From positions 18,133-82,132 of the forward strand of contig JBKPAO010000123.1 of assembly GCA_046726475.1 (NCBI GenBank): 64,000 nt of DNA, read 5' to 3'. The notes under the pieces are model-generated. The model had not been told where the DNA came from, did no database searches, and saw only the letters and a program-made list of their open reading frames with translations. The position numbers were made by a program, and so were the translations under genes. Below are positions 9,477 through 49,254 of this stretch, piece by piece (the stretch's first letter is position 1; every line of letters starts with the position of its first letter). This DNA comes from Gemmatimonadota bacterium (lineage in GTDB: Bacteria; Gemmatimonadota; Gemmatimonadetes; Gemmatimonadales; GWC2-71-9).

Positions 9477-10466
9477 CTACTGTTGGCCCCGCGCCTTCTT
9501 TACTTCCGCCGTGAGACGAGGGAGAATCTCGAACAGGTCTCCCACGATGCCATAGTCGGCGACCTTGAAGATCGGTGCGTCCTTGTCCTTGTTGATCGCG
9601 ACGATCGTCTTTGCCGTGCGCATACCCGCAAGGTGCTGGATCGCTCCCGAGATGCCCACCGCGATGTACAAATCGGGGCTCACCAGACGTCCGGTCTGCC
9701 CGATCTGGTCGGTGGGCGGTCGCCAGCCATCGTCGGTCACCGCTCGAGTAGCGCCGACCGCCGCGTTACCGATGGCAGCTGCGAGCTCCTCTACCAGCTT
9801 GAAATTCTCCGGCGCACGTAGACCGCGACCTCCGCTCACGATGATGGGTGCCTCGCCGAGGTCGAGCTTGGTGGCGCTTCGCTGGGCGAGATCGGAGACG
9901 GTAACTCGGGCGGCAGCCGGGTCCATCGCGGGCTGAATCGACTCACTCCGGGCAGTGCGCGGATGCTCCTTCGGAGTCACGAACCCCGGACGAAGCGAGA
10001 GCAGCGCAGGTCTGCTGGTGAGGCGCAGCGTGGCGATCACCTTGCCGGTATACGCCGGATGCTGGACCACGGTAGCATCTTCTCCCAGCTCATAACCGGT
10101 GACATCGGAGGCGAGACTTACCCGGAGCCGGGCCGCGACTCGCGGTGCCAGATCCCGTCCCTGTGCCGATGCGGCAAAGAAGCCGGCCCGATATCGGGTG
10201 GATCTGAGTCGTTCGGCGACGGTCGCGGCAACTACCTCGGGGTTGTAACGATCGAGCTGGGGATGCTCGACGGCAACAATCACGTCCGCGCCGTGGCGAG
10301 CGAGCGCGTCCGCTCGCGCAGCGGTCCCGGGGGCCCCAAATACCATCGCGTGCACTTCACCTCCAGAGCCCGAGTCGGCCGCCTCGCGTGTGGCGGTGAC
10401 CGTCTCCAGCGCCACCTTGCGAAGCTCGCCACCTCGCGATTCGGCAAATGCCAGGATCGGATCCAT
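9477..10466 (-). CDS. etfA: Electron transfer flavoprotein subunit alpha
   Basis: The C-terminal FAD-binding signature is IVSGGRG....NF.L.EELA...A.VGA.RA..D.GW......[23 protein letters not shown]. Its ATG overlaps the etfB TAA by 1 nt. Confidence 0.92.
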
Positions 10467-11218
10467 TACAGCACCTTGGCTTCGGTCTGGAGGAGACGAA
10501 CCAGCTCGGGAACTGCGTCGGCGCCTTCCCCGATGATCCTTCCCGCCGGTCGTTCCGCCGGCAGCTCCAGCCTCTCGATCGTCAACTGAGACTTACCGAG
10601 CTGGGCGGGCTTCACCTCGAGTGGCTTCTTCTTGGCAGCCATGATCCCCTTGAGCGAGGCCAAACGGGGACGCGCGATGCCTTCATCGATAGTCAGCACC
10701 GCGGGCAGCGGGAACTCCACAGTTTCCGACGCGCCTTCGAGGTCCCGCCGAGCGGTGCCTCGGGTGCCCTGGATGTCGAGTTGGGAAATCGCGGTCACGC
10801 AGGGGAGCTCGAGCAGCTCGGCAGTCATGGGTCCGACGGTGCCGTGCGCCGTATCGGTGGCCATCCGGCCAAAGAGGATGAGATCGTATTTCCCGTCCCG
10901 GAGCTCCGCCGCAAGCGCCTCGGCAATCGCCAGCCCATCGACGGGGACTTGGTCGGCCTTCAGCTGTACCGCCCGGGTGGCCCCCATGGCCAAAGCCTTT
11001 CGTAGCGTCTCCTGCACACCATCCGGTCCCACAGAGAGGGCCACAACTTCACCCGGGCCCTGCTTTTCGTTGAGCTGGAGAGCAACCTCGAGCGCATAGC
11101 CGTCGAAATCGCCCATCTCGTACTTCATTCCGGCCTGCTCCAGAGATTTCTGGTCGGCCGCAATGGCAAACCTCATTTCCATATCGGGCACGCGCTTGAT
11201 GCAAACGGCGATCTTCAA
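10466..11218 (-). CDS. etfB: Electron transfer flavoprotein subunit beta
   Basis: MKIAVCIKRVPD...NP.D..ALE.AL.L.E...GEV.ALS.GP......LR.ALAMGA..A..L; 250 aa. Confidence 0.92.
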   Translation of the reverse strand: MKIAVCIKRVPDMEMRFAIAADQKSLEQAGMKYEMGDFDGYALEVALQLNEKQGPGEVVALSVGPDGVQETLRKALAMGATRAVQLKADQVPVDGLAIAEALAAELRDGKYDLILFGRMATDTAHGTVGPMTAELLELPCVTAISQLDIQGTRGTARRDLEGASETVEFPLPAVLTIDEGIARPRLASLKGIMAAKKKPLEVKPAQLGKSQLTIERLELPAERPAGRIIGEGADAVPELVRLLQTEAKVL

Positions 11219-11326
11219 TGTGTAGCTCCAAGAATCAAACCCGCGGCAAAGCTAGCCCTTCCCCGGACAGAAACGCAAACGAGGCCACCAGCGGTGGCCT
11301 CGCGCGCACGATATCACACTCAATCG

Positions 11327-12220
11327 TCAGCGGGTCCCGCCATCCCCGCGGCGATCCTTGAGCCCCGGACGATCGACTCTGCGCCGGTCGATCATCGCGC
11401 GCTCCACCCAGCCGTTGCCCATCGCGGTCCGTTGAGTGCTCGAGCCCGCCTGCGCTTGCTGCGCCATTCCCTGGGCCTGGTGCTGCGCCGCAGTGGCCGC
11501 GCGCTCCAGCTTCGGTCCTGCCTGTTGCACGTTCCGGCTGATCGACTCGAGTACCTGGGCCGCCCGATCCCGCCCGCCAAGGCCGAACGCGAGGCCGAAG
11601 GCGATGGATAGCGCACCGATTACACCGATCAGCAGCGTGTTGACCAGGGTGGTAGCGATGCCCAGCTGGTTCACGGCCACGATAATCGTGAATCCCCAAA
11701 TCGCTACTCGGGTCACGGCCGCGAGCATCTCGTGGTTGGTGAATCCCGCTTCGGCCGACGCCCCTCGGACCAGCTGGGACAGTGCCTTTGCGGCGAGACC
11801 GCCGATGACCAGTACCACGAGGGCAACTACCAGGTTCGGCAACCAGAGCAGCAGCTGCTGGAGCACGCTCGATACGGCCGGCAGTCCCAGCGTATCGAAT
11901 GCCACCACGAGGGTGATCAACCGTACGAACCACTTGACGATTCCGGCGATCACGCCTGCGGGGTCATCCTTAACACCCATCTTCTGGACGAAGTCGGCAA
12001 ACCCCGAGCGGCGGGCCAGTTCGTTGAACTTCACCGCATGCAACAAGGCCTGAACACCCCGAGCGAACAGCGACGAGATGATCCAACCGACAATAAGCAC
12101 GACGGCGAACCCGATAACGCGTGGGATCGCCGACAGAAGTGTGTTCAGTGCTCCTGCCAAAGACGCCTTGAAGGCGTCACCGGTGTCCTGCACCGGCACC
12201 GCGACGGTTGTAGCCTGCAT
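11327..12220 (-). CDS. Membrane protein with conserved-TM-helix repeats (mechanosensitive-channel-related family)
   Basis: Repeated units of the form IP.VIGFAVVLIVGWIIS...A / LPNLVVALVVLVIGGLAAKAL / LIGVIGALSIAFGLAFGLGG. The tail is Gln/Ala-rich. Confidence 0.6.
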   Translation of the reverse strand: MQATTVAVPVQDTGDAFKASLAGALNTLLSAIPRVIGFAVVLIVGWIISSLFARGVQALLHAVKFNELARRSGFADFVQKMGVKDDPAGVIAGIVKWFVRLITLVVAFDTLGLPAVSSVLQQLLLWLPNLVVALVVLVIGGLAAKALSQLVRGASAEAGFTNHEMLAAVTRVAIWGFTIIVAVNQLGIATTLVNTLLIGVIGALSIAFGLAFGLGGRDRAAQVLESISRNVQQAGPKLERAATAAQHQAQGMAQQAQAGSSTQRTAMGNGWVERAMIDRRRVDRPGLKDRRGDGGTR

Positions 12221-39271: not shown

Positions 39272-39773
39272 TCAATTGATCAAACGATGGCAGATACCTA
39301 TCTCTCGCTGCGGGTTCATCTGGTGTGGGCCACCAAGAATCGAAGACCCTGGCTCGATCCGGAATGGAGGCCCAGGCTATACGCGTACGCGGCAGCGGTG
39401 ATCGCCCGGCGGGGCGGAGAGCTTTTTACCGCCGGAGGTACGCGCGATCACATTCATCTCTACTTGGAGCCTCCCATCACTCTGGCATTGGCTGATCTGG
39501 TCACGAGCATCAAGGCGACCACGTCCAAGTGGATCCATGACAGCTTCCCACATCGGCGCGATTTCCGGTGGCAGCATGGCTATGGCGCATTCAGCGTCAC
39601 GCCGTTTGACGACGCGTACATCCGGGATTACATCCGCAACCAGGAGCTGCACCATAAGGACAATCGCTTTGCCGGGGAATACCGTAACATTCTCGACCGC
39701 CACGGGGTCACGTATGATCCTGCCCACATCTCGGATTGAACGCCAAATTCATTGAACCGCTTTGATCGATTGA
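39272..39773 (+). mobile_element. Compact IS200-like unit: a Y1 transposase gene bracketed by a 13-nt imperfect inverted repeat
   Basis: TCAATTGATCAAA (39272-39284) pairs with TTTGATCGATTGA (39761-39773, reverse complement TCAATCGATCAAA; 12/13 match). GC looks locally lower. No tnpB is present. Confidence 0.45.
39287..39739 (+). CDS. tnpA: IS200/IS605-family Y1 (HUH) transposase-like protein, solitary (RAYT-like)
   Basis: LRVHLVWATKNRRPWL, the HUH motif DHIHLYL, and the catalytic-Tyr helix IRDYIRNQ (compare IS608 TnpA KQYIENQ). 150 aa from ATG 39287. Confidence 0.85.
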   Translation: MADTYLSLRVHLVWATKNRRPWLDPEWRPRLYAYAAAVIARRGGELFTAGGTRDHIHLYLEPPITLALADLVTSIKATTSKWIHDSFPHRRDFRWQHGYGAFSVTPFDDAYIRDYIRNQELHHKDNRFAGEYRNILDRHGVTYDPAHISD

Positions 39774-39891: not shown

Positions 39892-40425
39892 CTACGATAC
39901 CAATTGCCGGCGGAGCTTCGTCATTCGCCGCCGCACCGAGCCGTCCAGTACACGCTCGCCCACCCGCACGACCGCACCACCGAGAATCTCCGGATCCACC
40001 GCGAACGCGGGAATCACCTGCTTCCCGAGCTGCCGGCTGAGCAAATCCTGGATGGTTCGCTTCAATTTTTCGTCCGGGGTCCTCGCCAAGGTCACACCCG
40101 CCCGCACCCGGTCGAGCTTTCGATCCAGCAGGTTCAGGTATTCCGTAGCAACCTCCCGCAGCAGCTGTTGCCGGCCACGCTTCACCATAGCTTGGAGGAA
40201 TAGCCCGAACTCACGAGGCGCTTCCCGCAGCGCGCCACCCAGGATCCTTGCCTTCTCCGTCTTTGGAACCTTGGGTGACATAAGCACCGCCTGCACTCGC
40301 GGTGTCTGCTCCACCGCCGCTGCGACCGCGTCGAGCAGGTCCACGTACCGTTCGGTGTTCCCGCTGCGCTCGCCGAGCTGAAATAGCGCTTCCGCGTAAT
40401 TGCGGGCGATCGTTTCGTTTCTCAA
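39892..40425 (-). CDS. atpH: F-type ATP synthase subunit delta (OSCP)
   Basis: The N-terminus IARNYAEALF.L......... is typical of OSCP. 177 aa, positioned after atpF, with a 4-nt overlap. Confidence 0.88.
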   Translation of the reverse strand: MRNETIARNYAEALFQLGERSGNTERYVDLLDAVAAAVEQTPRVQAVLMSPKVPKTEKARILGGALREAPREFGLFLQAMVKRGRQQLLREVATEYLNLLDRKLDRVRAGVTLARTPDEKLKRTIQDLLSRQLGKQVIPAFAVDPEILGGAVVRVGERVLDGSVRRRMTKLRRQLVS

Positions 40426-40961
40426 TGCTGCGCGCCCAGGCCGGAGAGATATTCCTGGACGATCCTGCGATCGTTCTCCGAGTTGAGCCGCTCGCTGATC
40501 AGCTTGCTGGCCGCCGCCAGTGAAAGGTCAACCGCCTCACGCCGGAGCTCGACCACCGCCCGCTCGCGCTCCAACTGGATGTCGCGCCGGGCCCGCTCCA
40601 GGAGCTCCTCCTGTTCCTGCCGGGTCTTCTCCATTGCGAGTGCCCGCTCCTTTTCCGCCGCAGCGCGAGCCTCCGCGAGTAATGCGTGGGCCGATGCTCT
40701 GCCTTCAGCCAGCAGTTTCTCATGTCGCGCCAGCAGCTCCGCCGCCTCTCGTCGATTCCGCTCCGCCTCGGCCAGCTGCTCCTCTAGCGCGCGCTCCCGG
40801 GCCTCGACCGCACCGAGTACCGCCGGCCAGGCGAACTTTCTTAGGATGACGAGCAGTGCCACGAAGACGACGACGGTCCAGATCATCAGCCCAGGCTCGA
40901 CCGAGAGCGGACCGCGGGCCGCGGGCTCCTGCATGAGGGCAAAGGTGACGAACAGTGACAT
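40422..40961 (-). CDS. atpF: F-type ATP synthase subunit b
   Basis: A single N-terminal TM segment followed by a long charged coiled coil (EARERALEEQLAEAERNRREAAELLA...). Supported by its position in the operon. Confidence 0.88.
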   Translation of the reverse strand: MSLFVTFALMQEPAARGPLSVEPGLMIWTVVVFVALLVILRKFAWPAVLGAVEARERALEEQLAEAERNRREAAELLARHEKLLAEGRASAHALLAEARAAAEKERALAMEKTRQEQEELLERARRDIQLERERAVVELRREAVDLSLAAASKLISERLNSENDRRIVQEYLSGLGAQH

Positions 40962-40971
40962 GGTGACTCCA

Positions 40972-41049
40972 GTCTAGAGTCTAGGGTCTAGAGTCATTGG
41001 ATGCGGTATACATCCCGATCCCGCAGACTCTCGACCCTGGACCCTGGAC
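40972..41049. repeat. Inverted heptamer arrays (GTCTAGA family) forming a hairpin between atpE and atpF
   Basis: Left arm: GTCTAGA GTCTAGG GTCTAGA GTC. Right arm: GAC TCTCGAC CCTGGAC CCTGGAC. 20 of 24 positions are Watson-Crick. The 30-nt spacer contains GGATG-N7-CATCC. Confidence 0.9.
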
Positions 41050-41052
41050 GAT

Positions 41053-41331
41053 CTAAAACGTGATCTTGCTCTGAATGAGAAATCCAATAACCGCCACGAA
41101 CAGTGCAACGCCTTCGATCAGTGCCGCCGCGATGATCATGGCGGTCTGAATCCTTGCCGTGGCATCGGGCTGGCGGGCGATACCCTCGGTCGCCGAGCCA
41201 CCGATACGACCGATACCGATGCCGGCGCCCAGCACGGCGAGTCCAGCAGCCAGACCGGCGCCGATGAGACCGTAGCCTTTGCCGGCGGTCGCCGCGGCGG
41301 TTTCCTGAAGCAGAGCGAGCATGGACAGCAT
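41053..41331 (-). CDS. atpE: F-type ATP synthase subunit c
   Basis: GLIGAGLAAGLAVLGAGIGIGRIGGSATEGIARQPDA......AMIIAAALIEGVALFVAVIGFL is a canonical c-subunit hairpin. The start is ATG 41331 or 41322. Confidence 0.92.
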   Translation of the reverse strand: MLSMLALLQETAAATAGKGYGLIGAGLAAGLAVLGAGIGIGRIGGSATEGIARQPDATARIQTAMIIAAALIEGVALFVAVIGFLIQSKITF

Positions 41332-41551
41332 GTGTGAACTCCATAGCGTGTGCGGGAGACCCGAAATCTCTCTGCGCTCGCCATGCATCGCCGGTCTCCC
41401 AAACCGGATTTGCCCTGGCTACCCGCCATCGTCCCAACCCTCGAGTCGGAACAGCGGGCTTCGTCCGCCATTCGGCGGAGTACTCTAGTTCGGCCGGCAG
41501 GAGCGCCCTAGCGACCGAAAGGTTCTGCTTCCTTGCTGCGTTGTTGCCCCG

Positions 41552-42550
41552 CTAGTGTTCCGCCCTCATCAACCCAATGAACACTGCCGTCAGCAGGGTG
41601 AACACGAACGCCTGCAGAAACGCCACGAAGACCTCGAGCAACATGACGCCGGTGGCGAGCAGCGATGCGCCGACTCCCACCAAGTAGCTTTGGAATAGAA
41701 ACGTCAGGCCGAGCAGCGCCAGCACCAACACGTGACCCGAAGTCATGTTGGCGAAGAGTCGCACCGCCAGTGCGAACGGCTTGGCCAGCTTGCCGATGAT
41801 CTCGATCGGGGTCATGACCACCAGCAAGAGCACCTTGAGAAGGGTCCCACCCACGCCGCCCGGCAAGCCAGGGGGAAGGTAGAAGATGGTCTTCATATAG
41901 CCCTTGAATCCCAGGGCCCGCATGCCGGTCACTTCGATGACCAGAAATGCGATGAGCGCGAGCGCTGCGGTCACTGCGATGTTGCTGGTCGCGGTGGCAC
42001 CCCAGGGCAAAAGCCCCAGCAGGTTCATCGCGAGAATGAAGAAGAACACCGTCAGCAGGAAGGGGGCATAGCCTTCGCCGTGATGCCCGACATTAGGAAG
42101 GACCACTTCCTGCCGGACCCAGAGCGCCATGGCTTCCATCGCTCCGGCAAATCCCATGGGCGGCCGACCTCGAGCCTGGGCTCGAGCGATCGCCCGGCCG
42201 CTGGGAATGAAAACCAGGGCGACCAGGGCGGCAGCCAACAGCATGTAGACGAGATGGCGGGTGGGCGAGAGGTCGAGATAGCGCGGCTGCCCCTCGGCAT
42301 CGGTCCCCAGCCTGATCTTCCAGTTCTCGGGCAGGTGAATGACCCCGAACGGCGTCTCTACCTCGTGCGCGTCTCCTATATGGTGGGCGATGTCGATCTG
42401 GTTTTGGTTCGCCTCGTGCTGGTTGTTGGGTGCAACCACCTCACGTCCAACCTCGTGGGCCGGTTCCTGAGCCGATACCGAACCGCTGAGACCCCCACTG
42501 GCAAGTGCCAACGCGCCTATTGTCATTATCCTGCTGAATCGCTGCCTCAT
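41552..42550 (-). CDS. atpB: F-type ATP synthase subunit a
   Basis: The conserved C-terminal part is LAVRLFANMTSGH.....L. ATG 42550 overlaps the atpI-like stop (ATGA). There is a long N-terminal extension with a signal-like segment. Confidence 0.9.
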   Translation of the reverse strand: MRQRFSRIMTIGALALASGGLSGSVSAQEPAHEVGREVVAPNNQHEANQNQIDIAHHIGDAHEVETPFGVIHLPENWKIRLGTDAEGQPRYLDLSPTRHLVYMLLAAALVALVFIPSGRAIARAQARGRPPMGFAGAMEAMALWVRQEVVLPNVGHHGEGYAPFLLTVFFFILAMNLLGLLPWGATATSNIAVTAALALIAFLVIEVTGMRALGFKGYMKTIFYLPPGLPGGVGGTLLKVLLLVVMTPIEIIGKLAKPFALAVRLFANMTSGHVLVLALLGLTFLFQSYLVGVGASLLATGVMLLEVFVAFLQAFVFTLLTAVFIGLMRAEH

Positions 42551-42912
42551 CCCTTGTCCCTGGAATGTTTTCGCACCGCCGTGACTGCCTCCACCAGCAG
42601 CAGCGCCAAGAGCGTCACCACTAATGTGAGGAGCATTGACCCGCTGTCCCACCGGTAGACCGGAGCAAGGATCAGTGCTGCAGCGGCCACGATCAGAAGC
42701 CTGATGAGCATCCCCCCGACCCATGCGAACTGGAACCGCTCGGTCCCAATACTCCGTAGCGTCCACCAGCCGAGTGGAGCCTGGACCAGAAGTCCAGCGA
42801 CCACGCCGGCGGCGATCTCCTGGCGAAAACGGGGTGGGGCGAAAACCATCACGAACGCACCGAGGACGGCAACCGCCAGGAGTCCGATCACATACTGGCG
42901 AGAGGCGGTCAC
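42547..42912 (-). CDS. atpI: ATP synthase protein I-like membrane protein
   Basis: Four hydrophobic segments, positioned immediately upstream of atpB. GTG 42912 overlaps the atpZ stop (GTGA). Confidence 0.6.
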   Translation of the reverse strand: MTASRQYVIGLLAVAVLGAFVMVFAPPRFRQEIAAGVVAGLLVQAPLGWWTLRSIGTERFQFAWVGGMLIRLLIVAAAALILAPVYRWDSGSMLLTLVVTLLALLLVEAVTAVRKHSRDKG

Positions 42913-43172
42913 TCGCCCCCATCCTTTCGTCCTAGTGACCGTATCAGCCAATACATGGTACCGCCAAAACCCAGGAACGCTGCCACCACCGTAAGCACTC
43001 CACCGGTGCCCAGCTTCCGGTCGGCCCATTGGCCGATCCAGACGAAGACCAGCAGGCTGACCGCGAGCTGGACGCCGAGACCGGCGTACTTCATCGCACC
43101 CGGCGCCCGTTTGCCGGGCCCTTCGGGGGTGTTCACGGGCGCTAACCTATCCGCTTGTGAAAAGTTTCGCAA
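42909..43172 (-). CDS. atpZ: AtpZ/AtpI family small membrane protein (ATPase_gene1-like)
   Basis: MKYAGLGVQLAVSLLVFVWIGQWADRKLGTGGVLTVVAAFLGFGGTMYWLIR is typical of the family. The start may be ATG 43094 rather than 43172. Confidence 0.7.
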   Translation of the reverse strand: MRNFSQADRLAPVNTPEGPGKRAPGAMKYAGLGVQLAVSLLVFVWIGQWADRKLGTGGVLTVVAAFLGFGGTMYWLIRSLGRKDGGE

Positions 43173-43444: not shown

Positions 43445-44458
43445 ATGACCGCCACCCAAGCGGCGCCGCATGACGACGTCCAGCAGCTGGAACGCCTGGT
43501 CGGTGCCGTTACTCGGCTCAAGAGCCAGGTTGCGCAGCGCATCGTCGGGCAGGAAGACGTGGTAGACGGGATTCTCACCGCGGTACTTGCCGGCGGCCAC
43601 GCGCTGCTCATCGGCGTTCCCGGCCTGGCCAAAACGCTCATGGTCCAGACGGTGGCAGAGGCGCTCGACCTCAGCTTCAACCGGGTGCAGTTCACCCCCG
43701 ATCTCATGCCGAGTGACATCACAGGGACCGAGATCATCGAGGAGGATCTGACCACCGGCCGGCGCGCCTTTCGCTTCGTACAGGGTCCGATTTTCGCCAA
43801 CGTCGTGCTCGCCGACGAGATCAACCGCACGCCGCCAAAGACTCAAGCCGCGCTGCTCCAGGCGATGCAGGAGCATCAGGTTACCGCCGCCGGCACGACC
43901 TACCGGTTGCCCGACCCTTTTTTCGTGCTCGCGACCCAGAACCCCATCGAGCAAGAGGGTACCTACCCGCTGCCCGAGGCGCAGCTCGACCGCTTCATGC
44001 TGGAGCTCCGGGTGAGCTACCCCAGCAAGCAGGAAGAGGAAGCGATCGTCGAGCAGACTACCGGTACCAGCCGCGCAGGGTTGCATCCCGTCCTCGACGC
44101 GGCATCGGTGCTTTCAATGCAGTCGTTGGTGCGACGGATCCCGGTCTCGCGAGGACTGATCCGGGCAGCGGTCACCCTGGCCCGGATGACTCGGCCGGGC
44201 GACGGCGATGCACCTGGGTTCATCAAGGAATATGTGGAATGGGGCGCCGGACCGCGCGCGTCACAGTACCTGGTACTCGGCGCCAAAGCGCGCGCCGCGA
44301 TCGCCGGGCGTCCCATGGCCGACCTTGAGGACGTGCGCGGCGTCGCTGCCTCGGTTCTACGCCACCGGCTGGTCACTAACTTCGCCGCCGAAGCAGCCGA
44401 CCGTACCAGTGACGATCTGGTGCGCGAGCTGATGGGGGGGAAGGGATGGTTGGGGTAA
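43445..44458 (+). CDS. MoxR-family AAA+ ATPase
   Basis: IVGQEDVVDGILTAVLAGGHALLIGVPGLAKT.....A.AL.L.F.R.QFTPDLMPSDITG, LADEINR.PPKTQ.ALL.AM.E..V. Confidence 0.9.
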   Translation: MTATQAAPHDDVQQLERLVGAVTRLKSQVAQRIVGQEDVVDGILTAVLAGGHALLIGVPGLAKTLMVQTVAEALDLSFNRVQFTPDLMPSDITGTEIIEEDLTTGRRAFRFVQGPIFANVVLADEINRTPPKTQAALLQAMQEHQVTAAGTTYRLPDPFFVLATQNPIEQEGTYPLPEAQLDRFMLELRVSYPSKQEEEAIVEQTTGTSRAGLHPVLDAASVLSMQSLVRRIPVSRGLIRAAVTLARMTRPGDGDAPGFIKEYVEWGAGPRASQYLVLGAKARAAIAGRPMADLEDVRGVAASVLRHRLVTNFAAEAADRTSDDLVRELMGGKGWLG

Positions 44459-44638
44459 GCGGGGAAGCGGGACCGAGGATCAATAGATCATCAGTAAAGA
44501 AAGAAGCCCGGCCAACTTGACCGGGCTTCTCGATTGTTCTGAGCACATTCCTCGGCTCGCGGTAAGGCGGTTCGTTCACTGATCTGACATCTAGACCGCC
44601 CAACCAACTATTTCCCCGCTTTCCGCTTCCCCGCTTAC
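44455..44638. repeat. Perfect 16-nt inverted repeat (GTAAGCGGGGAAGCGG; GGGGAAGC family) bracketing a bidirectional terminator
   Basis: 44455-44470 is the exact reverse complement of 44623-44638. Each arm contains the TAA stop of one of the two convergent genes. Confidence 0.9.
44503..44529. terminator. Bidirectional rho-independent terminator between the moxR-like and lipoprotein genes
   Basis: GAAGCCCGG-N9-CCGGGCTTC. The minus-strand RNA is followed by UUUCUUUACU, and the plus-strand RNA by UCGAUUGUUCU. Confidence 0.65.
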
Positions 44639-45738
44639 GCCGGCTGCGAGAAAAACGCTCCGACCGGTGCCAGCATCTGATCGAACGCAATGAACGCGGC
44701 GGCCTGCAGCTGGAAGACGCCGTCTAGCGCGACCAGCTCGTCATCCGAAAGCGGCGTTCCGTCGGCGCGGGTAATCGTCGTGGTGGTGCCGTTGGTTGTG
44801 ATCGTCGCGAAGGCAGTGCCGTTGATCCGGACGTTGAGGGTGCCGCTAGTCTCCGCGAACTGTCCGGTCATCGTCACCGTGCCGTTGGGACCGCGCATCG
44901 AGAGATTGATGTTGATCGGGCTGTCCGGCACGCTCACATCGGCCACGCTCACCGTCAGGCTGATCGAGACGTCGCGATCCGGCATAGTGAGCGAGTAGGT
45001 CAGCGTCAGACCGGCGGTGACCGTGATGGTGGACTGGAGATTGATGTTGGCCTGGGTGACACCGTCGGTGACGTACCCAATCACGGTGACCCGGCCGCTG
45101 GTCGCGCCGCTGCTGGCGCTCACGGTGTAGTCGATGTAGGTCGTCGACCCCGATATCACCTGCACTCGTGCCGCCTGGGTGGTTCCGACGCTCACATCGG
45201 TGATGTCCACGTGGCCGGTTTCGACCAGCGGTTCCACCGGCAGATATGTCACCGGATCTACCGCGTACAGCAGGAAGCGCACGCCATTGGATGGGGCGCC
45301 GGTGATGTCCGAAGCGACATAGCTCCCGGTGCCGATGTCATAGACGAAGGTCTTCCCCGCGACTGCTGTCGGGACCCCCATCATCGAAGCGCTCAGCCCG
45401 TCGCGGTCCTTCTTGATGAGTGTCGCCGCCAGCCGCCGCGCTGCGCGAGCCGCCGCCACCCTGATGCCTTGGGCTCCGCCGCCCCGCACATCGATCGCGA
45501 CCGCCGAGGTCGAGATGATGGGTGCACCGCCTAGCGCCGCATCGAACATCAGGCTGAACGTTGAAAAGCTGGCGAAGGCCGGGGAGGCGAATGTCGAATT
45601 CATCGCCTCGAGGTCGGTCGAGGTACCATTGGGATTGAATGGCGCGTCAGGACTCGACTCACTGCCGCAGCCTGTCAGGGTAAGAGAGACCAGCGCCACC
45701 GCCACGACAGATCGCTTGGCGAATTGCAGCACACGCAT
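44635..45738 (-). CDS. Hypothetical lipoprotein
   Basis: GGAGG lies 9 nt upstream of ATG 45738. The signal peptide plus lipobox is MRVLQFAKRSVVAVALVSLTLTGC. The body is Thr/Val-rich and beta-type. No family recognised. Confidence 0.6.
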   Translation of the reverse strand: MRVLQFAKRSVVAVALVSLTLTGCGSESSPDAPFNPNGTSTDLEAMNSTFASPAFASFSTFSLMFDAALGGAPIISTSAVAIDVRGGGAQGIRVAAARAARRLAATLIKKDRDGLSASMMGVPTAVAGKTFVYDIGTGSYVASDITGAPSNGVRFLLYAVDPVTYLPVEPLVETGHVDITDVSVGTTQAARVQVISGSTTYIDYTVSASSGATSGRVTVIGYVTDGVTQANINLQSTITVTAGLTLTYSLTMPDRDVSISLTVSVADVSVPDSPININLSMRGPNGTVTMTGQFAETSGTLNVRINGTAFATITTNGTTTTITRADGTPLSDDELVALDGVFQLQAAAFIAFDQMLAPVGAFFSQPA

Positions 45739-45922
45739 GGGTTCCGCCTCCATCCTCAGGAGCCAGTTGAGGCAGTCCGGTCGTCGGACTACCGGTCGAA
45801 AGCCGTCAAACGGGGGATTTGAGCGCTTTTCGGGGGTGCCGCAGGCCACCGCGGAAGCGGCGGCCCAGGACTGATGCGGGATAAGGCAACGGCTATGCCA
45901 AAAGCTGCAGGTACGTGAGTTG

Positions 45923-46109
45923 GAAGCTGGGAGCTAGGAGCTAGGACCTGGGAGCCGGGAGGTGGGCGCTGCTGGGAGCTGAGCTGAGCTGAACGTTACC
46001 TGCCTGGCGTCGAGCAGCTTCCGAATGTCGAAAGGAAGACGGGATCGCTCGATGGCCTCGCTCCCGACTCCTAGCTCCTAGCTCCCAGCTCCTGACTCCT
46101 ATCCTCCAC
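45923..46109. repeat. Inverted GGAGCTA / CTCCTAG heptamer arrays
   Basis: Left arm 45923-45993 is GAAGCTG GGAGCTA GGAGCTA GGACCTG GGAGCCG GGAGGTG ... GGAGCTGAGCTGAGCTG. Right arm 46061-46109 is CTCCCGA CTCCTAG CTCCTAG CTCCCAG CTCCTGA CTCCTAT CCTCCAC. Confidence 0.9.
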
Positions 46110-46220
46110 GGGTAACCCCGCAGCCTGCCAGGCGGCCCAGCCGCCCACCAGGGCACGCGCCTTGGGCCAGCCTGCCGCTCGAAGCTCTCGCGCCACCCGG
46201 GCGCTTGTGGCTTCGTCCTT
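46071..46220 (-). other. In-frame continuation of the rhodanese domain beyond the TGA at 46221-46223 (49 codons plus TAG)
   Basis: Same frame as the antiporter ORF. It reads KDEATSARVARELRAAGWPKARALVGGWAAWQAAGLPVEDRSQELGARS*, which is the expected second half of a rhodanese fold (..A..L...G......L.GG..AW...G.PVE). Confidence 0.7.
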
Positions 46221-47678
46221 TCACGCACAGTAGAGCACTACCGTCGCGTGGTGGTCGAGACCCAGCTCCCTGGCTCGACGGACGGCGTCCTCCGGCGGAA
46301 GCCGAATCGCGCCGGCAGCCTTGAGATTGTCGGCGGCGTGGCTCCGCTCGGTGCGCACGTCGGCCAGAATCACTGGCTCGCCCGAGTCGCGGAGTTGCTG
46401 TAGCTCGCCGAGCGTGATGCGCTCGGGGACCCGGACATCGGGATCCGGCTGAGTCGTGACCGGAGCGGCGCTAATCTCCGTTGCTTCAGTGAGCGAGCCC
46501 TCGGTCTTACTGAGGAACAGGGCGATCCCGGTGCCGTGGAGCGCCACCGAAAGCAGTACCACCAGACTGGTGATCGCGAAGAGTCGGTCGCTGCCCTGCA
46601 CGCCGGCGAACACCGGCAGCAGGATCAGCAGCAGCGAGCTGAGCCCTCGCGGACCCCCGATCCAGGCGATGATCCGGCGAGTGCGCACGTCGAAGCCCTC
46701 GCGCGCCAGCACCGGCAGCAGCACCACGGACCGCATGACCAGCGCGACCAGGGCAAAGAGCAGCGTGCGCCCGTCGGCGACGTTGACCCCCCTCCAGATG
46801 AGCCCGGCGCCGAACGCGACGAAGGTGAACAGCAGAAACATCTCGGCGGTGGCCTGACCATAGTCGAGGAAGCAGTCGCACAGCTCCACGTCCAGCTTGG
46901 CAATGACCACGCCCGCCGCGAATGCAGCCAGGAACCCGCTTCCGCCCACCGACTCGGCCGCGGCATAGGCAGTGAACGCGACGCCGAGCGCGTAGAGCGA
47001 TTCGTAGTCGCGCCGGACCCCGATCCGCTTTCGCACCTGCTCCAACAGAGTTATCGCGACGAAACCGGCGAGGGCGCCGAGTCCTGGACCGAGCAGGAAG
47101 AGTCCCACCGCATGGCGGCTGAATTCTGAAGCGCCGTCGCTGGTAGTCAGCCCTAGGATGCTCAACACGATGATCGGCAACAGCACCACGTCGTTGATCC
47201 CGCCCTCCAGGCGGAGCCCCTCGCGCACCGCGGGCGGGAGACTGGACCGCCGGATCAGATTCCGGAGCATCACCGGATCGGTCGAGGCCAGCGCCGCCCC
47301 GAGCATGGTGGCGTGGAGGGGTTGGAGACCGAGCAGCAGCCACGCAGCCACCCCGATGAGCACGGCCGGGATCAGTGTCCCCGGACCCAGGATCAAGAGC
47401 AGCAATCGCCGTGGCCGCCTGATCTCTCTCAGATCCATGGCGATGGCATCGGTGAACAGAACCAGCACCAGACCGAGCGTCGCGATCCACTCGAGCGTGG
47501 GCGACCCGAGTGTGAGGTTTACGAGGTTGAGCCCGGCGGGGCCGAGCACTGCGCCGAGCAGCAGGAAGATGGCGACTTGGGGAACTCCGGTGCGCTCGAT
47601 CAGCCCGGAGAGGAGTGACGAGACCAGGATGACGATCCCGATCAGCGCGAGTGCGGAGGCGAGCGATTCGGGAGACAT
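46221..47678 (-). CDS. CPA1-family cation/proton antiporter with a C-terminal rhodanese domain (ORF as delimited by the in-frame TGA)
   Basis: The N-terminal ~400 aa is a Na+/H+-exchanger-type membrane domain (...TGVPQVAIFLLLGAVLGP..., ATDPV...). The C-terminus ILADVRTE.....L.AAGAIRLP...........HHATVVLYCA stops exactly in the rhodanese active-site loop. Confidence 0.85.
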   Translation of the reverse strand: MSPESLASALALIGIVILVSSLLSGLIERTGVPQVAIFLLLGAVLGPAGLNLVNLTLGSPTLEWIATLGLVLVLFTDAIAMDLREIRRPRRLLLLILGPGTLIPAVLIGVAAWLLLGLQPLHATMLGAALASTDPVMLRNLIRRSSLPPAVREGLRLEGGINDVVLLPIIVLSILGLTTSDGASEFSRHAVGLFLLGPGLGALAGFVAITLLEQVRKRIGVRRDYESLYALGVAFTAYAAAESVGGSGFLAAFAAGVVIAKLDVELCDCFLDYGQATAEMFLLFTFVAFGAGLIWRGVNVADGRTLLFALVALVMRSVVLLPVLAREGFDVRTRRIIAWIGGPRGLSSLLLILLPVFAGVQGSDRLFAITSLVVLLSVALHGTGIALFLSKTEGSLTEATEISAAPVTTQPDPDVRVPERITLGELQQLRDSGEPVILADVRTERSHAADNLKAAGAIRLPPEDAVRRARELGLDHHATVVLYCA

Positions 47679-47692
47679 GCGGGAAGTATGTC

Positions 47693-47719
47693 GGAGCTAA
47701 GAGCTAGGAGCTAGGAGCC
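47693..47719. repeat. Tandem GGAGCTA heptamer array (single arm)
   Basis: GGAGCTAA GAGCTAG GAGCTAG GAGCC, followed by the palindrome ATGACT-CCTC-AGTCAT. It lies in the divergent region between the two antiporter genes. Confidence 0.85.
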
Positions 47720-47775
47720 AACAGCGATGACTCCTCAGTCATTGCGGGGCCGTGAGCGGTCCGCTAACCTCGCGC

Positions 47776-49254
47776 ATGACCCACGAACCGGAAGCTACCG
47801 CTCTTCTCCTCGCCACTTGCGGCCTGCTCCTCGGCGTCAGCGTCGTCTTCAGCCGAGCCTCGCAGCGAACCGGCATTCCAATCGCGCTCTTGTTCATCGT
47901 GGTTGGGATGCTCGCCGGCTCCGAAGGTGTGGGCCGCATTGCCTTCGACGACTACCGATTCGCCTTTCGGCTGGGGACCGTTGCCCTAGCGCTGATTCTG
48001 TTCGATGGCGGACTCAACACTCCCCTGCAGACCGTACGAAAGGCGGCGGCTCCCGCCGGTGTGCTCGCCACCGTCGGCGTGGCCGGTACCGCCGTGCTGG
48101 TCGCCGTCGTCGCGCACGCCCTGGGGCTGAGCTGGCCCGAGGCGCTCCTTCTCGGAGCGGTGGTCTCATCCACCGATGCCGCCGCCGTCTTCGCTGTGCT
48201 TCGGGGCAGCGGTCTCCAGCTCAAGCGCCGGGTCGGGGTCACGCTCGAGGTCGAATCCGGCATCAACGATCCGGTCGCCGTCATCCTCACCACGACACTG
48301 ACTCAGAACTTGCTCTCCCCCGGGGCGGCATCAGGAATCCGGATCGTGATCGAAGTCCTGGTCCAGCTTCTGGTCGGGACCGTGGTGGGCATTGCGATCG
48401 GCCACGGTGGACGGCAGCTCCTCGCCCGGTTGAGTCTCCGGACGGGCGGCCTCTATCCCGTCGTGAGCCTGGCGCTGGCGCTATTTGCCTTCGGAGCCGG
48501 CACGCTGCTGCACGGAAGCGGCTTCCTCGCAGTGTATCTCGCGGGCCTGGTGCTCGGAAACGGCCCGCTACCGTATCACACCGGGCTTCTCCGGGTGCAC
48601 GACGCGCTCGCCTGGCTCAGCCAGGTCGGGATGTTTCTCATACTCGGTCTCCTGGTGTATCCCTCCCGCCTACTCGACGTGGCCTGGATTGGACTCGGCA
48701 TTGCGGCGCTGCTCGCCTTCTTCATCCGACCGCTGGTCGTGGCGTTTTGTCTCCTGCCGTTTCGCTATCCTTGGAACGAGGTGTTCTACATAGGGTGGGT
48801 AGGACTCCGCGGTGCGGTGCCGATCGTGCTGGCGACGTTCCCCGTGCTGGCGGGCGCTCCCGGCGCGGATCGACTCTTCGACTTGGTCTTCTTCATCGTG
48901 GTCGCGACCGCCCTGGTTCCCGGCGCCACGGTTGCGTGGGTGACCCGAAGGCTCGGTCTTCAGAGCAAGCAGCCGCCAGCCCCCCAGCCGGTGCTGGCGA
49001 TCGAGTCGCGCCAGCCGCTCCAGGGCGAGCTCATGTCCTTCTATATAGATGAAGCGCTGGTAGTGGCAGGGATGGCGGTGGAGGAGCTGTCGCTGCCGGA
49101 GGGCGCGGCGGTGACGCTGATTGTGCGGCACAATCGTCTACTGCCACCGATAGCAGGAACCGCGCTCGAACCGGGCGATCACGTCCACCTGATCGCACAG
49201 CCGGAAGACCGCGGGTTCATTCAACTGATGTTCGGAAGGCCCGAGGAGGAATAG
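47776..49254 (+). CDS. nhaP2: K+/H+ antiporter NhaP2-like (CPA1) with a C-terminal TrkA-C domain
   Basis: ...SRASQRTGIPIALLFIVVGMLAGSEGVG.I.FDDY......G..AL..ILF.GGL.T, and the C-terminal part EL.LPEGA.V.LI.R......P...T.LE.GD.V.L. The start is ATG 47776, or GTG 47752 as in the track. Confidence 0.85.
   Translation: MTHEPEATALLLATCGLLLGVSVVFSRASQRTGIPIALLFIVVGMLAGSEGVGRIAFDDYRFAFRLGTVALALILFDGGLNTPLQTVRKAAAPAGVLATVGVAGTAVLVAVVAHALGLSWPEALLLGAVVSSTDAAAVFAVLRGSGLQLKRRVGVTLEVESGINDPVAVILTTTLTQNLLSPGAASGIRIVIEVLVQLLVGTVVGIAIGHGGRQLLARLSLRTGGLYPVVSLALALFAFGAGTLLHGSGFLAVYLAGLVLGNGPLPYHTGLLRVHDALAWLSQVGMFLILGLLVYPSRLLDVAWIGLGIAALLAFFIRPLVVAFCLLPFRYPWNEVFYIGWVGLRGAVPIVLATFPVLAGAPGADRLFDLVFFIVVATALVPGATVAWVTRRLGLQSKQPPAPQPVLAIESRQPLQGELMSFYIDEALVVAGMAVEELSLPEGAAVTLIVRHNRLLPPIAGTALEPGDHVHLIAQPEDRGFIQLMFGRPEEE

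What the first reader, a model, noticed from the sequence alone, without database searches (positions are those of the whole stretch)
46071..46300. In-frame TGA inside the rhodanese active-site loop of a cation/proton antiporter: candidate selenocysteine, readthrough or fresh pseudogene
The antiporter ORF ends ...HHATVVLYCA-TGA (46221-46223). The same frame then continues for 49 codons as KDEATSARVARELRAAGWPKARALVGGWAAWQAAGLPVEDRS..., reaching a TAG at 46071-46073. That continuation is exactly the missing second half of a rhodanese domain.

The stop therefore falls two residues after the conserved YC, within the catalytic loop. From memory, many rhodanese domains carry a C-x-C-P-x-E-A-(S/T)-S-A loop here. 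If so, the UGA aligns with the second Cys, which is the classic Cys/Sec signature. Rhodanese-type sulfurtransferases have been listed among prokaryotic selenoprotein families.

A small hairpin (GCCAC-N10-GUGGC, 46192-46211) starts 9 nt after the UGA and could be a SECIS-like element, but it is weak evidence. The alternatives are a very recent nonsense mutation or a sequencing error.
Basis: partly seen in the sequence, partly recalled or inferred. Interest (0 to 1): 0.68.

Follow-up and report, generated by a model that had tools for sequence, protein, structure and literature searches.

The report
Selenocysteine codon in antiporter-rhodanese fusion
The "stop" inside this membrane ion-exchanger gene is almost certainly a selenocysteine codon, conserved with its RNA signal in at least 80 bacterial species, so the databases list the protein 50 residues too short.

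Summary
An NhaP-type cation/proton antiporter ORF (window 47678-46224, minus strand) meets a TGA at 46221-46223. The same frame then runs 49 more codons and completes a rhodanese domain.

The selenocysteine reading is strongly supported:
- In 80 of 80 related species genomes from several phyla, the aligned codon is TGA. The gene's real terminator varies (36 TAG, 33 TGA, 11 TAA).
- The downstream codons evolve like coding sequence.
- A 5-bp hairpin 17-31 nt after the UGA (window 46190-46204) pairs in 79 of 79 distinct sequences, with compensatory changes. It meets the published bacterial SECIS constraints.
- More distant homologues carry Cys at this position (C-x-C-P-[ND]-[ED]-x-T-S).
- The domain hits NCBIfam NF041203, "rhodanese_LYCAU, rhodanese-related (seleno)protein". 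That family's C-x-U motif is already catalogued.

The Sec-rhodanese domain is therefore known. Its fusion to a CPA1 antiporter, and its dominance in soil Gemmatimonadales, is absent from the selenoprotein reviews I read.

Three points remain open: the Sec machinery could not be checked in the source genome, which of C484 or U486 is the canonical catalytic residue is unresolved, and the function of the tail is inferred.

The parts
46071..47678 (-). Full selenoprotein gene: 535 codons including UGA486, plus the terminal TAG at 46071-46073. It encodes a CPA1/NhaP antiporter fused to a C-terminal rhodanese domain.
   Evidence: Translation. Pfam on the joined product. tblastn matches spanning residues 1 to about 529 in 80 loci.
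46509..47624 (-). Na+/H+ exchanger (CPA1, NhaP-type) transmembrane domain, residues 19-390.
   Evidence: PF00999, E 2.8e-42, profile positions 2-374 of 375. The best NCBIfam hits are potassium/proton antiporter models, all below their cutoffs.
46119..46412 (-). Rhodanese domain, residues 423-520, interrupted by the UGA.
   Evidence: PF00581, E 4e-10, full-length profile match only when the two halves are joined. NF041203 rhodanese_LYCAU scores 87-91 bits.
46221..46223 (-). UGA codon 486, the inferred selenocysteine.
   Evidence: TGA in 80 of 80 related loci. Cys in more distant homologues. TGT in the Cys-form locus L082.
46227..46229 (-). Cys484 codon (TGT), the partner residue of the C-A-U motif.
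   Evidence: Invariant Cys in all 81 sequences, which read [YF]C[AT]*. Invariant column C69 of alignment A2.
46190..46204 (-). Core SECIS hairpin GCGCC-CGGGU-GGCGC: a 5-bp helix with a 5-nt apical loop. The helix spans nt 17-31 after the UGA, and 21 nt separate the UGA from the loop.
   Evidence: Predicted independently by RNAalifold. Paired in 100% of 79 distinct sequences, with GC->AU in 10 and CG->UA in 4, and never broken. Loop is C-G-[G/U]-G-[U/C]. Hairpin alone folds at -7.6 kcal/mol.
46181..46214 (-). Possible extended SECIS: lower stem GAAGC/GCUUC plus the C17-G37 and 18-36 pairs. Support is weaker.
   Evidence: 12-pair structure is 84.5% paired. Pair 18-36 switches between C-G (9 sequences) and G-C (8), mostly through third-codon-position changes. 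The lower stem is broken in 21-33 of 79 sequences. MFE of the 34-nt element is -14.4 kcal/mol in the window.
46060..46099 (-). (GGAGCTA)n heptamer repeat overlapping the last codons and the stop of the gene. It is probably not part of the Sec mechanism.
   Evidence: The C-terminal tail SQELGARS is encoded by the repeat and is not conserved among relatives.

Best explanation
The gene at window 47678-46071 (minus strand) encodes a 535-residue selenoprotein. It is an NhaP-type (CPA1) monovalent cation/proton antiporter whose C-terminal tail is a rhodanese domain with a Cys484-Ala-Sec486 motif in an active-site loop two residues longer than usual. The tail is cytoplasmic by family topology.

UGA486 is recoded co-translationally as selenocysteine. 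SelB carrying Sec-tRNA(Sec) is recruited by a small SECIS hairpin inside the coding sequence (GCGCC-CGGGU-GGCGC, 17-31 nt after the UGA). Translation then continues for 49 codons and completes the rhodanese fold.

**Shown:**
- the conserved UGA
- the coding constraint downstream
- the conserved and covarying hairpin
- the Cys/Sec pair with homologues
- the relationship to the curated LYCAU rhodanese selenoprotein family

**Inferred from established bacterial Sec biology:**
- the involvement of SelB, SelA, SelD and tRNA-Sec

**Inferred, weakly, from domain logic:** the C-x-U rhodanese tail acts as a redox-, persulfide- or selenium-reactive regulatory module, for example through a reversible Cys-S-Se-Sec selenenylsulfide. 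It would tune the attached antiporter in the way the TrkA_C/RCK tail does on the divergently encoded paralogue at 47752-49254. The alternative is a membrane-tethered sulfur/selenium transferase.
For: - **Conserved TGA.** It is the aligned codon in 80 of 80 GTDB species-representative loci. By record title these are mostly Gemmatimonadales, plus Pyrinomonadaceae, Syntrophobacteraceae and other delta proteobacteria, Binatia, Planctomycetota, Verrucomicrobiia, Nitrospinota, Eisenbacteria and the isolate Thermosporothrix hazakensis ATCC BAA-1881.
- **Ordinary stop usage elsewhere.** The true terminator of the same gene is TAG in 36 loci, TGA in 33 and TAA in 11, at variable positions 41-57 codons downstream. 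UGA is therefore an ordinary stop in these genomes, and only this UGA is fixed.
- **Truncated database entries.** About 56 database proteins at 55-84% identity to the query end at, or (a few frameshifted entries) are disrupted around...LYC[AT], which shows systematic truncation by gene callers. The identical 485-aa call exists in GCA_046744465.1.
- **Coding constraint downstream.** Variability by codon position at codons +13 to +40 is 0.16/0.15/0.42. Upstream of the UGA it is 0.21/0.15/0.38. In codons +1 to +12 the third-position variability drops to 0.155, as expected for an overlapping RNA structure.
- **SECIS hairpin.** RNAalifold finds exactly one helix. It is 100% paired, with 14 compensatory cells at 2 pairs; 0 of 500 shuffles reach the observed values, and slid controls give 20-75% pairing.
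- **Published bSECIS constraints** (PMC13188914 Fig. 2), all met:
  - apical loop 3-9 nt: here 5 nt
  - upper stem at least 4 bp: here 5 bp
  - G in the first two loop positions followed by G or U: here C-G-[G/U]
  - 16-37 nt from UGA to the loop: here 21 nt
  - MFE at or below -7.5 kcal/mol: the core is -7.6, and the 34-nt element passes in 77 of 81 sequences
- **Cys homologues.** An exhaustive search with the 49-aa tail finds homologues with Cys at the U position, including antiporter fusions P0084, P0127, P0129, P0138 and P0160. The Cys-form locus L082 has TGT there, and only 3 of the 5 helix pairs can form.
- **Known family.** NF041203 "rhodanese_LYCAU, rhodanese-related (seleno)protein" hits at E 4e-26. 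The rhodanese C-x-U selenoprotein form is listed in two reviews.
Against: - No tRNA-Sec, selA, selB or selD was found in the 64-kb window or in the 80 fetched loci. This is expected by chance, but it means the Sec machinery of the source genome is unverified.
- The selA/selB/selD probes were E. coli sequences written from memory.
- The literature library yielded no report of Sec use in Gemmatimonadota.
- The NF041203 score (87-91 bits) is below the curated cutoff of 115, so by NCBI's own criterion the domain is a relative of that family and not an equivalog.
- The window's 67-nt region does not fold better than shuffles (z = 0.34). The hairpin's support comes from conservation and covariation, not from thermodynamics.
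- The compensatory changes probably represent only a few independent events.
- There is no protein-level evidence.
- The regulatory role of the tail is pure inference.
Confidence: 0.93

Rival explanations
1. The UGA is a genuine conserved stop. The functional product would be the 485-aa antiporter with half a rhodanese domain, and the downstream conservation would belong to something else, such as a separately translated small ORF or a regulatory RNA.
For: Gene callers uniformly stop there. A 41-aa GTG-initiated ORF exists in the same frame at 46071..46196, and small ORF calls of this kind appear in the protein library, for example P0064, P0079 and P0095.
Against: - The two halves form one complete Pfam rhodanese domain only when joined.
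- Cys-form homologues are continuous proteins.
- Conservation starts at the first codon after the UGA (K/P-D/N-E-A-T-S), upstream of any internal start.
- The stop identity is fixed as TGA in 80 of 80 loci, while the real terminator drifts among all three stop codons.
- Half a rhodanese fold would not be stable.
Confidence: 0.03
2. The UGA is read through by SECIS-independent near-cognate decoding (Trp, Cys or Arg), or by a stop-codon reassignment, not as selenocysteine.
For: The Sec machinery was not verified in the source genome. One homologue has Trp at this position (P0130, C-A-W).
Against: - UGA serves as the normal terminator of the same gene in 33 of 80 relatives and of many genes in the window, so there is no reassignment.
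- A conserved hairpin with bSECIS geometry and covariation lies at the canonical distance.
- The aligned residue in homologues is overwhelmingly Cys.
- The domain matches a curated selenoprotein family.
Confidence: 0.03
3. The TGA is a recent nonsense mutation or a sequencing or assembly error in this particular genome, that is, a fresh pseudogene.
For: None beyond the bare in-frame stop.
Against: The same TGA is present in 80 independent assemblies from several phyla, in an isolate genome, and in an independent NCBI assembly encoding the identical 485-aa ORF.
Confidence: 0.005

Closest known systems
[quoted passage not shown]
   Same: - It has the same local motif L-Y-C-A-U, and Sec sits two residues after the conserved Cys in a rhodanese fold.
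- The window's domain aligns to profile positions 21-126 of 126 at E 4e-26.
- It is listed as a predicted selenoprotein family in PMC13188914 and PMC9312934.
   Different: - The model describes a stand-alone protein of about 126 aa. Here the domain is the C-terminal tail of a 13-TM-class CPA1 antiporter.
- The first 20 model positions are absent.
- The score (87-91 bits) is below the curated cutoff of 115.
- Several stand-alone Cys relatives appear, by eye, to have hydrophobic signal-peptide-like N-termini, for example P0080, P0161 and P0170. No predictor was run. The fusion tail is expected to be cytoplasmic.
Cys-form NhaP-rhodanese fusions (C-x-C-P-[ND]-[ED]-x-T-S loop)
   Same: - They share the domain architecture and loop length.
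- The second Cys aligns with the UGA (P0084, P0127, P0129, P0138, P0160).
   Different: - They carry TGT/TGC instead of TGA.
- The one DNA example examined lacks the intact SECIS helix.
- They were rarer than the Sec form among close relatives: none of the best 80 genome loci is a Cys form.
NhaP2/CvrA-type K+/H+ antiporters with a C-terminal TrkA_C (RCK_C) regulatory domain, and glutathione-gated KefC (CPA2)
   Same: - Each is a cation/proton antiporter core with a soluble C-terminal regulatory domain.
- A paralogue of exactly this type is encoded divergently next door (47752-49254; PF00999 plus TrkA_C) and is syntenic in about 36 Gemmatimonadales loci.
- KefC is a precedent for thiol- or electrophile-gated cation/proton exchange (own knowledge).
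   Different: - The tail here is a rhodanese domain with Cys-x-Sec, not an RCK/KTN nucleotide-binding domain.
- No evidence of gating was obtained.
- Identity between the two paralogues' membrane domains is only about 27-28%.
Other Sec-containing transport proteins: cation-transporting P-type ATPase (UxxC), YeeE/YedE, SO_0444 Cu/Zn efflux transporter and putative mercuric transport protein
   Same: They are predicted selenoproteins that are membrane transporters or transporter subunits (PMC13188914).
   Different: - None is a CPA-family secondary antiporter.
- In those proteins Sec is thought to be a metal ligand in the transport path, whereas here Sec is in an appended soluble domain.

Membership tests
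Bacterial selenoprotein gene (SelB/SECIS-dependent UGA recoding) | In-frame UGA conserved among orthologues, with a conserved in-frame coding continuation | tested here: met
   80 of 80 loci have TGA. The third-position excess downstream (0.42 against 0.16 and 0.15) equals that of the upstream coding sequence.
Bacterial selenoprotein gene (SelB/SECIS-dependent UGA recoding) | Cys-containing homologues with Cys aligned to the UGA (Cys/Sec pair) | tested here: met
   C-x-C homologues, including antiporter fusions. TGT at the aligned codon in L082.
Bacterial selenoprotein gene (SelB/SECIS-dependent UGA recoding) | bSECIS stem-loop immediately 3' of the UGA: 3-9 nt loop, at least 4-bp stem, G in the first two loop positions, 16-37 nt spacing, MFE at or below -7.5 kcal/mol | tested here: met
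   5-nt loop C-G-[G/U]-G-[U/C], 5-bp stem, 21-nt spacing, core MFE -7.6 kcal/mol. Constraints taken from PMC13188914 Fig. 2. The stem shows compensatory changes and is never broken.
Bacterial selenoprotein gene (SelB/SECIS-dependent UGA recoding) | Genome encodes tRNA-Sec (selC), SelA, SelB and SelD | not testable with these tools
   None was found in the window or in the 80 loci. Absence here is uninformative.
Bacterial selenoprotein gene (SelB/SECIS-dependent UGA recoding) | Selenium actually incorporated at the UGA position | not testable with these tools
   This requires 75Se labelling or mass spectrometry.
NCBIfam NF041203 rhodanese_LYCAU (rhodanese-related (seleno)protein, equivalog) | L-Y-C-A-U motif in a rhodanese domain | tested here: met
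   The window reads V-V-L-Y-C-A-U. Relatives read [YF]-C-[AT]-U.
NCBIfam NF041203 rhodanese_LYCAU (rhodanese-related (seleno)protein, equivalog) | Whole-protein score at or above the curated cutoff of 115 bits, with a full-length match to the 126-position model | tested here: not met
   The score is 87.1 bits for the whole protein and 91.2 bits for the domain alone, covering model positions 21-126. It is a related domain in a different architecture, not an equivalog.
Pfam PF00581 Rhodanese | Domain score above the gathering threshold, with a full-length match | tested here: met
   40.5 bits against a threshold of 22.2, profile positions 2-102 of 102, but only for the joined product.
Catalytically canonical rhodanese sulfurtransferase | Six-residue active-site loop beginning with the catalytic Cys (C-x4-[RST]) | tested here: inconclusive
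   The loop is two residues longer than in solved rhodaneses. Sequence and profile alignments place either C484 or U486 on the catalytic Cys, depending on the target: 6mxv domain 1 against domain 2, and YnjE. No structure could be predicted for the joined sequence under the tool restrictions.
CPA1 / NhaP-type cation:proton antiporter (PF00999) | Full-length Na_H_Exchanger transmembrane domain | tested here: met
   145.4 bits, profile positions 2-374 of 375. No NCBIfam equivalog cutoff is reached, so ion specificity (K+ or Na+) is undetermined.

The most novel reading that the evidence does not exclude
This is a selenium- and redox-gated ion exchanger. The Cys484-x-Sec486 pair in the rhodanese tail would form a reversible selenenylsulfide, or carry a persulfide or perselenide, and so switch cation/proton antiport on or off. 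Oxidant, sulfane-sulfur or selenium status would thereby be coupled to cytoplasmic pH and K+/Na+ homeostasis.

In addition, selenium supply would set the ratio of the full-length 535-aa protein to the truncated 485-aa antiporter. It would be the first Sec-dependent CPA antiporter. It would also show that soil Gemmatimonadales, Pyrinomonadaceae and others carry a Sec-decoding trait that current annotation hides.
Probability: 0.3. Interest if true: 0.7.

Novelty: new variant of a known kind. Interest (0 to 1): 0.48.

Why it matters
- **Annotation.** Every database protein I retrieved for this family is cut at ...LYCA. A widespread soil-bacterial membrane protein is therefore mis-annotated as truncated and its Sec residue is invisible. 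The fix is simple, and it flags the carriers as Sec-decoding organisms.
- **Selenoproteome.** The most recent review table I read (May 2026, PMC13188914) lists several Sec-containing transporters and five rhodanese forms. It lists no cation/proton antiporter and does not mention Gemmatimonadota. Within what I could read, this architecture and this taxon extend the catalogue.
- **Biology.** A Cys-x-Sec rhodanese domain hard-wired to an ion exchanger suggests that redox, sulfur or selenium status is linked to ion and pH homeostasis. That link is testable because a cultured carrier exists (Thermosporothrix hazakensis ATCC BAA-1881, locus L067).
- **Methods.** The element is a clean example of a minimal bacterial SECIS, a 5-bp helix with a 5-nt loop. 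Its covariation shows up as coupled amino-acid changes: TSARVA becomes TSTRVV or TSVRVT.

Tried and rejected
- **Rfam and ARAGORN on the window.** There were no hits. No tRNA-Sec or curated SECIS family is present, which is uninformative for a 64-kb piece.
- **ARAGORN on the 80 loci.** Only ordinary tRNAs were found.
- **tblastn for Sec machinery.** I probed the window and the loci with E. coli SelD, SelA and SelB sequences written from memory, and found nothing at E <= 1e-3. This cannot test the genome.
- **Submitting the joined or stop-containing sequence.** For the same reason the joined rhodanese domain could not go to structure prediction, and C484 versus U486 as the canonical catalytic residue stays unresolved.
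- **Sequence and profile alignment to solved rhodaneses.** The placement of the two-residue insertion was contradictory.
I rejected it as the SECIS because it shows no covariation and one pair is broken in 17 of 79 sequences.
- **The extended lower stem GAAGC/GCUUC.** It is present in the window but broken in 21-33 of 79 sequences, so I kept it only as "possible".
- **Single-sequence folding.** The energy is not better than shuffles (z = 0.34). Thermodynamics alone would not have found the element.
- **Screen for other in-frame-TGA genes in the window.** I tested the coding signature of the extensions and found no convincing second candidate.
- **Literature searches.** Searches for an antiporter selenoprotein, for NhaP-rhodanese fusions and for Sec in Gemmatimonadota found nothing relevant.
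- **Crude hydropathy and positive-inside analysis.** It was too ambiguous to fix the topology. The cytoplasmic location of the tail rests on CPA1 family knowledge.
Full report
**1. The observation**

An ATG-initiated ORF runs from 47678 to a TGA at 46221-46223. It is 485 codons long and ends ...DHHATVVLYCA. The same frame continues for 49 sense codons (KDEATSARVARELRAAGWPKARALVGGWAAWQAAGLPVEDRSQELGARS) to a TAG at 46071-46073.

With a placeholder Cys at the stop, the 535-aa product gives two Pfam matches:
- a complete Na_H_Exchanger domain at residues 19-390 (E 2.8e-42)
- a complete Rhodanese domain at residues 423-520, profile positions 2-102 of 102 (E 4e-10)

The TGA therefore lies inside one domain, two residues after the conserved Y-C.

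**2. Is it more than chance or error?**

A search of 5.8 billion proteins with the joined rhodanese region returned about 56 close homologues at 55-84% identity to the query. The intact ones cover only about 57-59% of the query and end at ...LYC[AT]. A few frameshifted entries, such as P0052, P0053 and P0056, are disrupted around the same point.

A scan of one genome per GTDB species found 144 relatives and kept the best 80.
- tblastn runs through the stop in all 80, and the aligned codon is TGA in 80 of 80.
- By record title the carriers are mostly Gemmatimonadales. They also include Pyrinomonadaceae, Syntrophobacteraceae and other delta proteobacteria, Binatia, Planctomycetota, Verrucomicrobiia, Nitrospinota, Eisenbacteria and the cultured Thermosporothrix hazakensis ATCC BAA-1881.
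- The real terminator of the same gene is TAG in 36 loci, TGA in 33 and TAA in 11, at 41-57 codons downstream.

UGA is therefore a normal stop in these genomes, and only this one UGA is frozen.

Column variability by codon position supports translation of the downstream part.

| Region | Position 1 | Position 2 | Position 3 |
|---|---|---|---|
| 10 codons upstream of the UGA | 0.21 | 0.15 | 0.38 |
| Codons +13 to +40 | 0.16 | 0.15 | 0.42 |

The downstream part evolves as translated sequence under purifying selection. A recent nonsense mutation, an assembly error or a genuine terminator are all excluded.

**3. The recoding signal**

In the first 12 codons after the UGA, third-position variability falls to 0.155. 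This points to a constraint on the RNA itself.

RNAalifold on 79 distinct sequences predicts exactly one helix, at alignment columns 20-24 and 30-34. In the window this is GCGCC-CGGGU-GGCGC at 46190-46204.

Pair counts for this helix:
- 100% of cells are paired.
- Two pairs show compensatory changes: G-C to A-U in 10 sequences and C-G to U-A in 4.
- No sequence has a broken pair.
- 0 of 500 shuffles reach the observed covariation score.
- Slid controls give only 20-75% pairing.

The compensatory changes appear at the protein level as coupled substitutions: TSARVA becomes TSTRVV or TSVRVT.

The element meets all four constraints of the published bacterial SECIS consensus (PMC13188914 Fig. 2).

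| Constraint | Required | Observed |
|---|---|---|
| Apical loop | 3-9 nt | 5 nt |
| Upper stem | 4-16 bp | 5 bp |
| G in the first two loop positions, followed by G or U | yes | C-G-[G/U]-G-[U/C] |
| Distance from UGA to loop | 16-37 nt | 21 nt |
| MFE | at or below -7.5 kcal/mol | -7.6 for the core; the 34-nt element passes in 77 of 81 sequences |

A lower extension is only partly conserved. It consists of C17-G37, a pair at 18-36 that swaps between C-G and G-C mostly through third-codon-position changes, and the stem GAAGC/GCUUC.

It has no compensatory change, and one of its pairs is broken in 17 of 79 sequences. It is not the conserved element.

Single-sequence folding energy is unremarkable (z = 0.34). 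The case rests on comparative evidence.

**4. The Cys/Sec pair**

An exhaustive HMMER search of 1.84 billion representatives with the 49-aa tail recovered continuous homologues. Their loop reads [FY]-C-[AST]-C-P-[ND]-[ED]-x-T-S. They include antiporter-rhodanese fusions (P0084, P0127, P0129, P0138, P0160) and stand-alone proteins.

A few divergent members have W, G, E, S or D at that position.

For one Cys-form fusion I obtained DNA (L082). The codon is TGT, and only 3 of the 5 SECIS helix pairs can form.

**5. Comparison with what is known**

NCBIfam contains NF041203, "rhodanese_LYCAU, rhodanese-related (seleno)protein". The window's domain, which reads V-V-L-Y-C-A-U, hits it at E 4e-26 over model positions 21-126 of 126. 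The score is 87-91 bits, below the curated equivalog cutoff of 115.

Two reviews list this as a predicted selenoprotein family with a C-x-U motif. [quoted passage not shown] The Sec-rhodanese domain is therefore known.

What I could not find anywhere in the literature library:
- its fusion to a CPA1 antiporter
- any cation/proton antiporter among Sec-containing transporters
- any mention of Gemmatimonadota in this context

This covers. The absence is limited to the open-access and bioRxiv library.

Public annotation truncates the protein. The identical 485-aa call is in GCA_046744465.1.

**6. Mechanism**

*Shown.* A conserved UGA, a conserved and covarying SECIS-type hairpin at the canonical distance, a coding continuation, Cys homologues and kinship to a curated selenoprotein family.

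*Inferred from established bacterial Sec biology.* SelB with GTP and Sec-tRNA(Sec) binds the hairpin while the ribosome is at UGA486 and inserts Sec. When selenium or SelB is limiting, termination would give the 485-aa protein with half a rhodanese domain.

*Not resolved.* Whether C484 or U486 occupies the canonical catalytic position.
- The active-site loop is two residues longer than in solved rhodaneses.
- Alignments place the insertion inconsistently.
- Counting back from the following helix favours U486. Counting forward from the beta-strand and its Y-C favours C484, which is also the residue more often retained in divergent homologues.
- Either way, the two residues are separated by one Ala in the loop. 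They are plausible partners for a selenenylsulfide or for a persulfide/perselenide relay.

*Inferred weakly.* The tail is cytoplasmic. This rests on CPA1 topology, because my crude hydropathy analysis was inconclusive. The tail would act as a redox-, sulfur- or selenium-responsive regulator of the exchanger.

It occupies the place of the TrkA_C domain on the divergently transcribed NhaP2-type paralogue at 47752-49254. That gene pair is syntenic in about 36 Gemmatimonadales loci. Glutathione-gated KefC is a functional precedent (own knowledge). A membrane-tethered transferase role is equally open.

**7. What remains untested**

The Sec machinery of the source genome is unverified. No tRNA-Sec, selA, selB or selD lies in the window or in the 80 loci. 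The collection scan that could have addressed this had already been used. A closed carrier genome lacking these genes would refute the interpretation.

**8. Verdict**

The finding is real, and the selenocysteine interpretation is supported (confidence about 0.93). It is a new architectural variant of a known selenoprotein domain, not a new kind of system.

It matters mainly as a systematic annotation error in abundant soil bacteria, and as a testable lead to redox- or selenium-linked control of an ion exchanger.

Interest is 0.48.

Noticed in passing
window 45923-45955 (+), 46060-46099 (-), 47693-47725 (+): Tandem heptamer repeats (GGAGCTA)n occur only at three places in the 64-kb window, all flanking this gene: 10 matches against 0.01 expected. 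One lies in the divergent promoter/5' region. One overlaps the last codons and the stop, so it encodes the non-conserved tail SQELGARS. The third lies about 105 nt further downstream in inverted orientation, so the 3' pair could form a long hairpin. The 5' copy is complementary to the copy at the 3' end of the mRNA. Similar repeats, often as inverted pairs just after the stop or upstream of the start, occur in 12 of the 80 related loci and occasionally elsewhere in those loci. A Y1_Tnp (IS200/RAYT-like) gene lies at about window 39287-39739 (mapped from L081). These may be REP-like elements; their function is unknown.
   Followed up: partly
window 47752-49254 (+): A second NhaP-type antiporter (500 aa; PF00999 plus a weak TrkA_C hit) is transcribed divergently from the selenoprotein gene, 74 bp away. 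The pair is syntenic in about 36 Gemmatimonadales loci but not in the other phyla. The two membrane domains are only about 27-28% identical.
   Followed up: partly
window 46221-47678 (-), and GCA_046744465.1 contig JBKPFV010000204.1 (L081 9150-10607): Public gene calls stop at the UGA. The identical 485-aa product is on record in an NCBI assembly, and the roughly 56 homologous database proteins end at, or are disrupted around, ...LYC[AT]. The C-terminal 41-51 residues are either missing or called as separate tiny ORFs such as P0064, P0079 and P0095.
   Followed up: yes
L067 (Thermosporothrix hazakensis ATCC BAA-1881, NZ_QKUF01000012.1), match 10001-11665: A cultured Chloroflexota isolate carries the same antiporter-rhodanese gene, with TGA (..PYCT*PNEETSARVA..) and the GCGCC-CGUGU-GGCGC hairpin. 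It offers an experimental system for 75Se labelling.
   Followed up: no
window 44635-45849 (-) and 43445-44458 (+): Downstream neighbours conserved in synteny within Gemmatimonadales are a 404-aa protein with no Pfam hit (34-70% identical in about 39 loci) and a MoxR-type AAA+ ATPase (77-95% identical in 30 loci). An F-type ATP synthase operon follows, with atpI-like, A, C, B and OSCP genes at about window 39892-43172 (mapped from L081).
   Followed up: partly
L082-L084 (Logan contigs, sample series ERR112759xx): The Cys-form fusion P0182/P0127 (304 aa) looks 5'-truncated. Antiporter-like sequence (...LIRRRMGVRRD) continues upstream in another frame, which suggests a frameshift or an assembly error in those contigs. 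A rubredoxin-reductase-like gene (Pyr_redox_2 plus Rbx_binding) lies upstream.
   Followed up: no
P0130: One stand-alone homologue has Trp (C-A-W-P-Q-E-A-T-S) at the Sec/Cys position. TGG is one mutation away from TGA, so this is possibly a Sec-to-Trp loss or a miscalled base.
   Followed up: no
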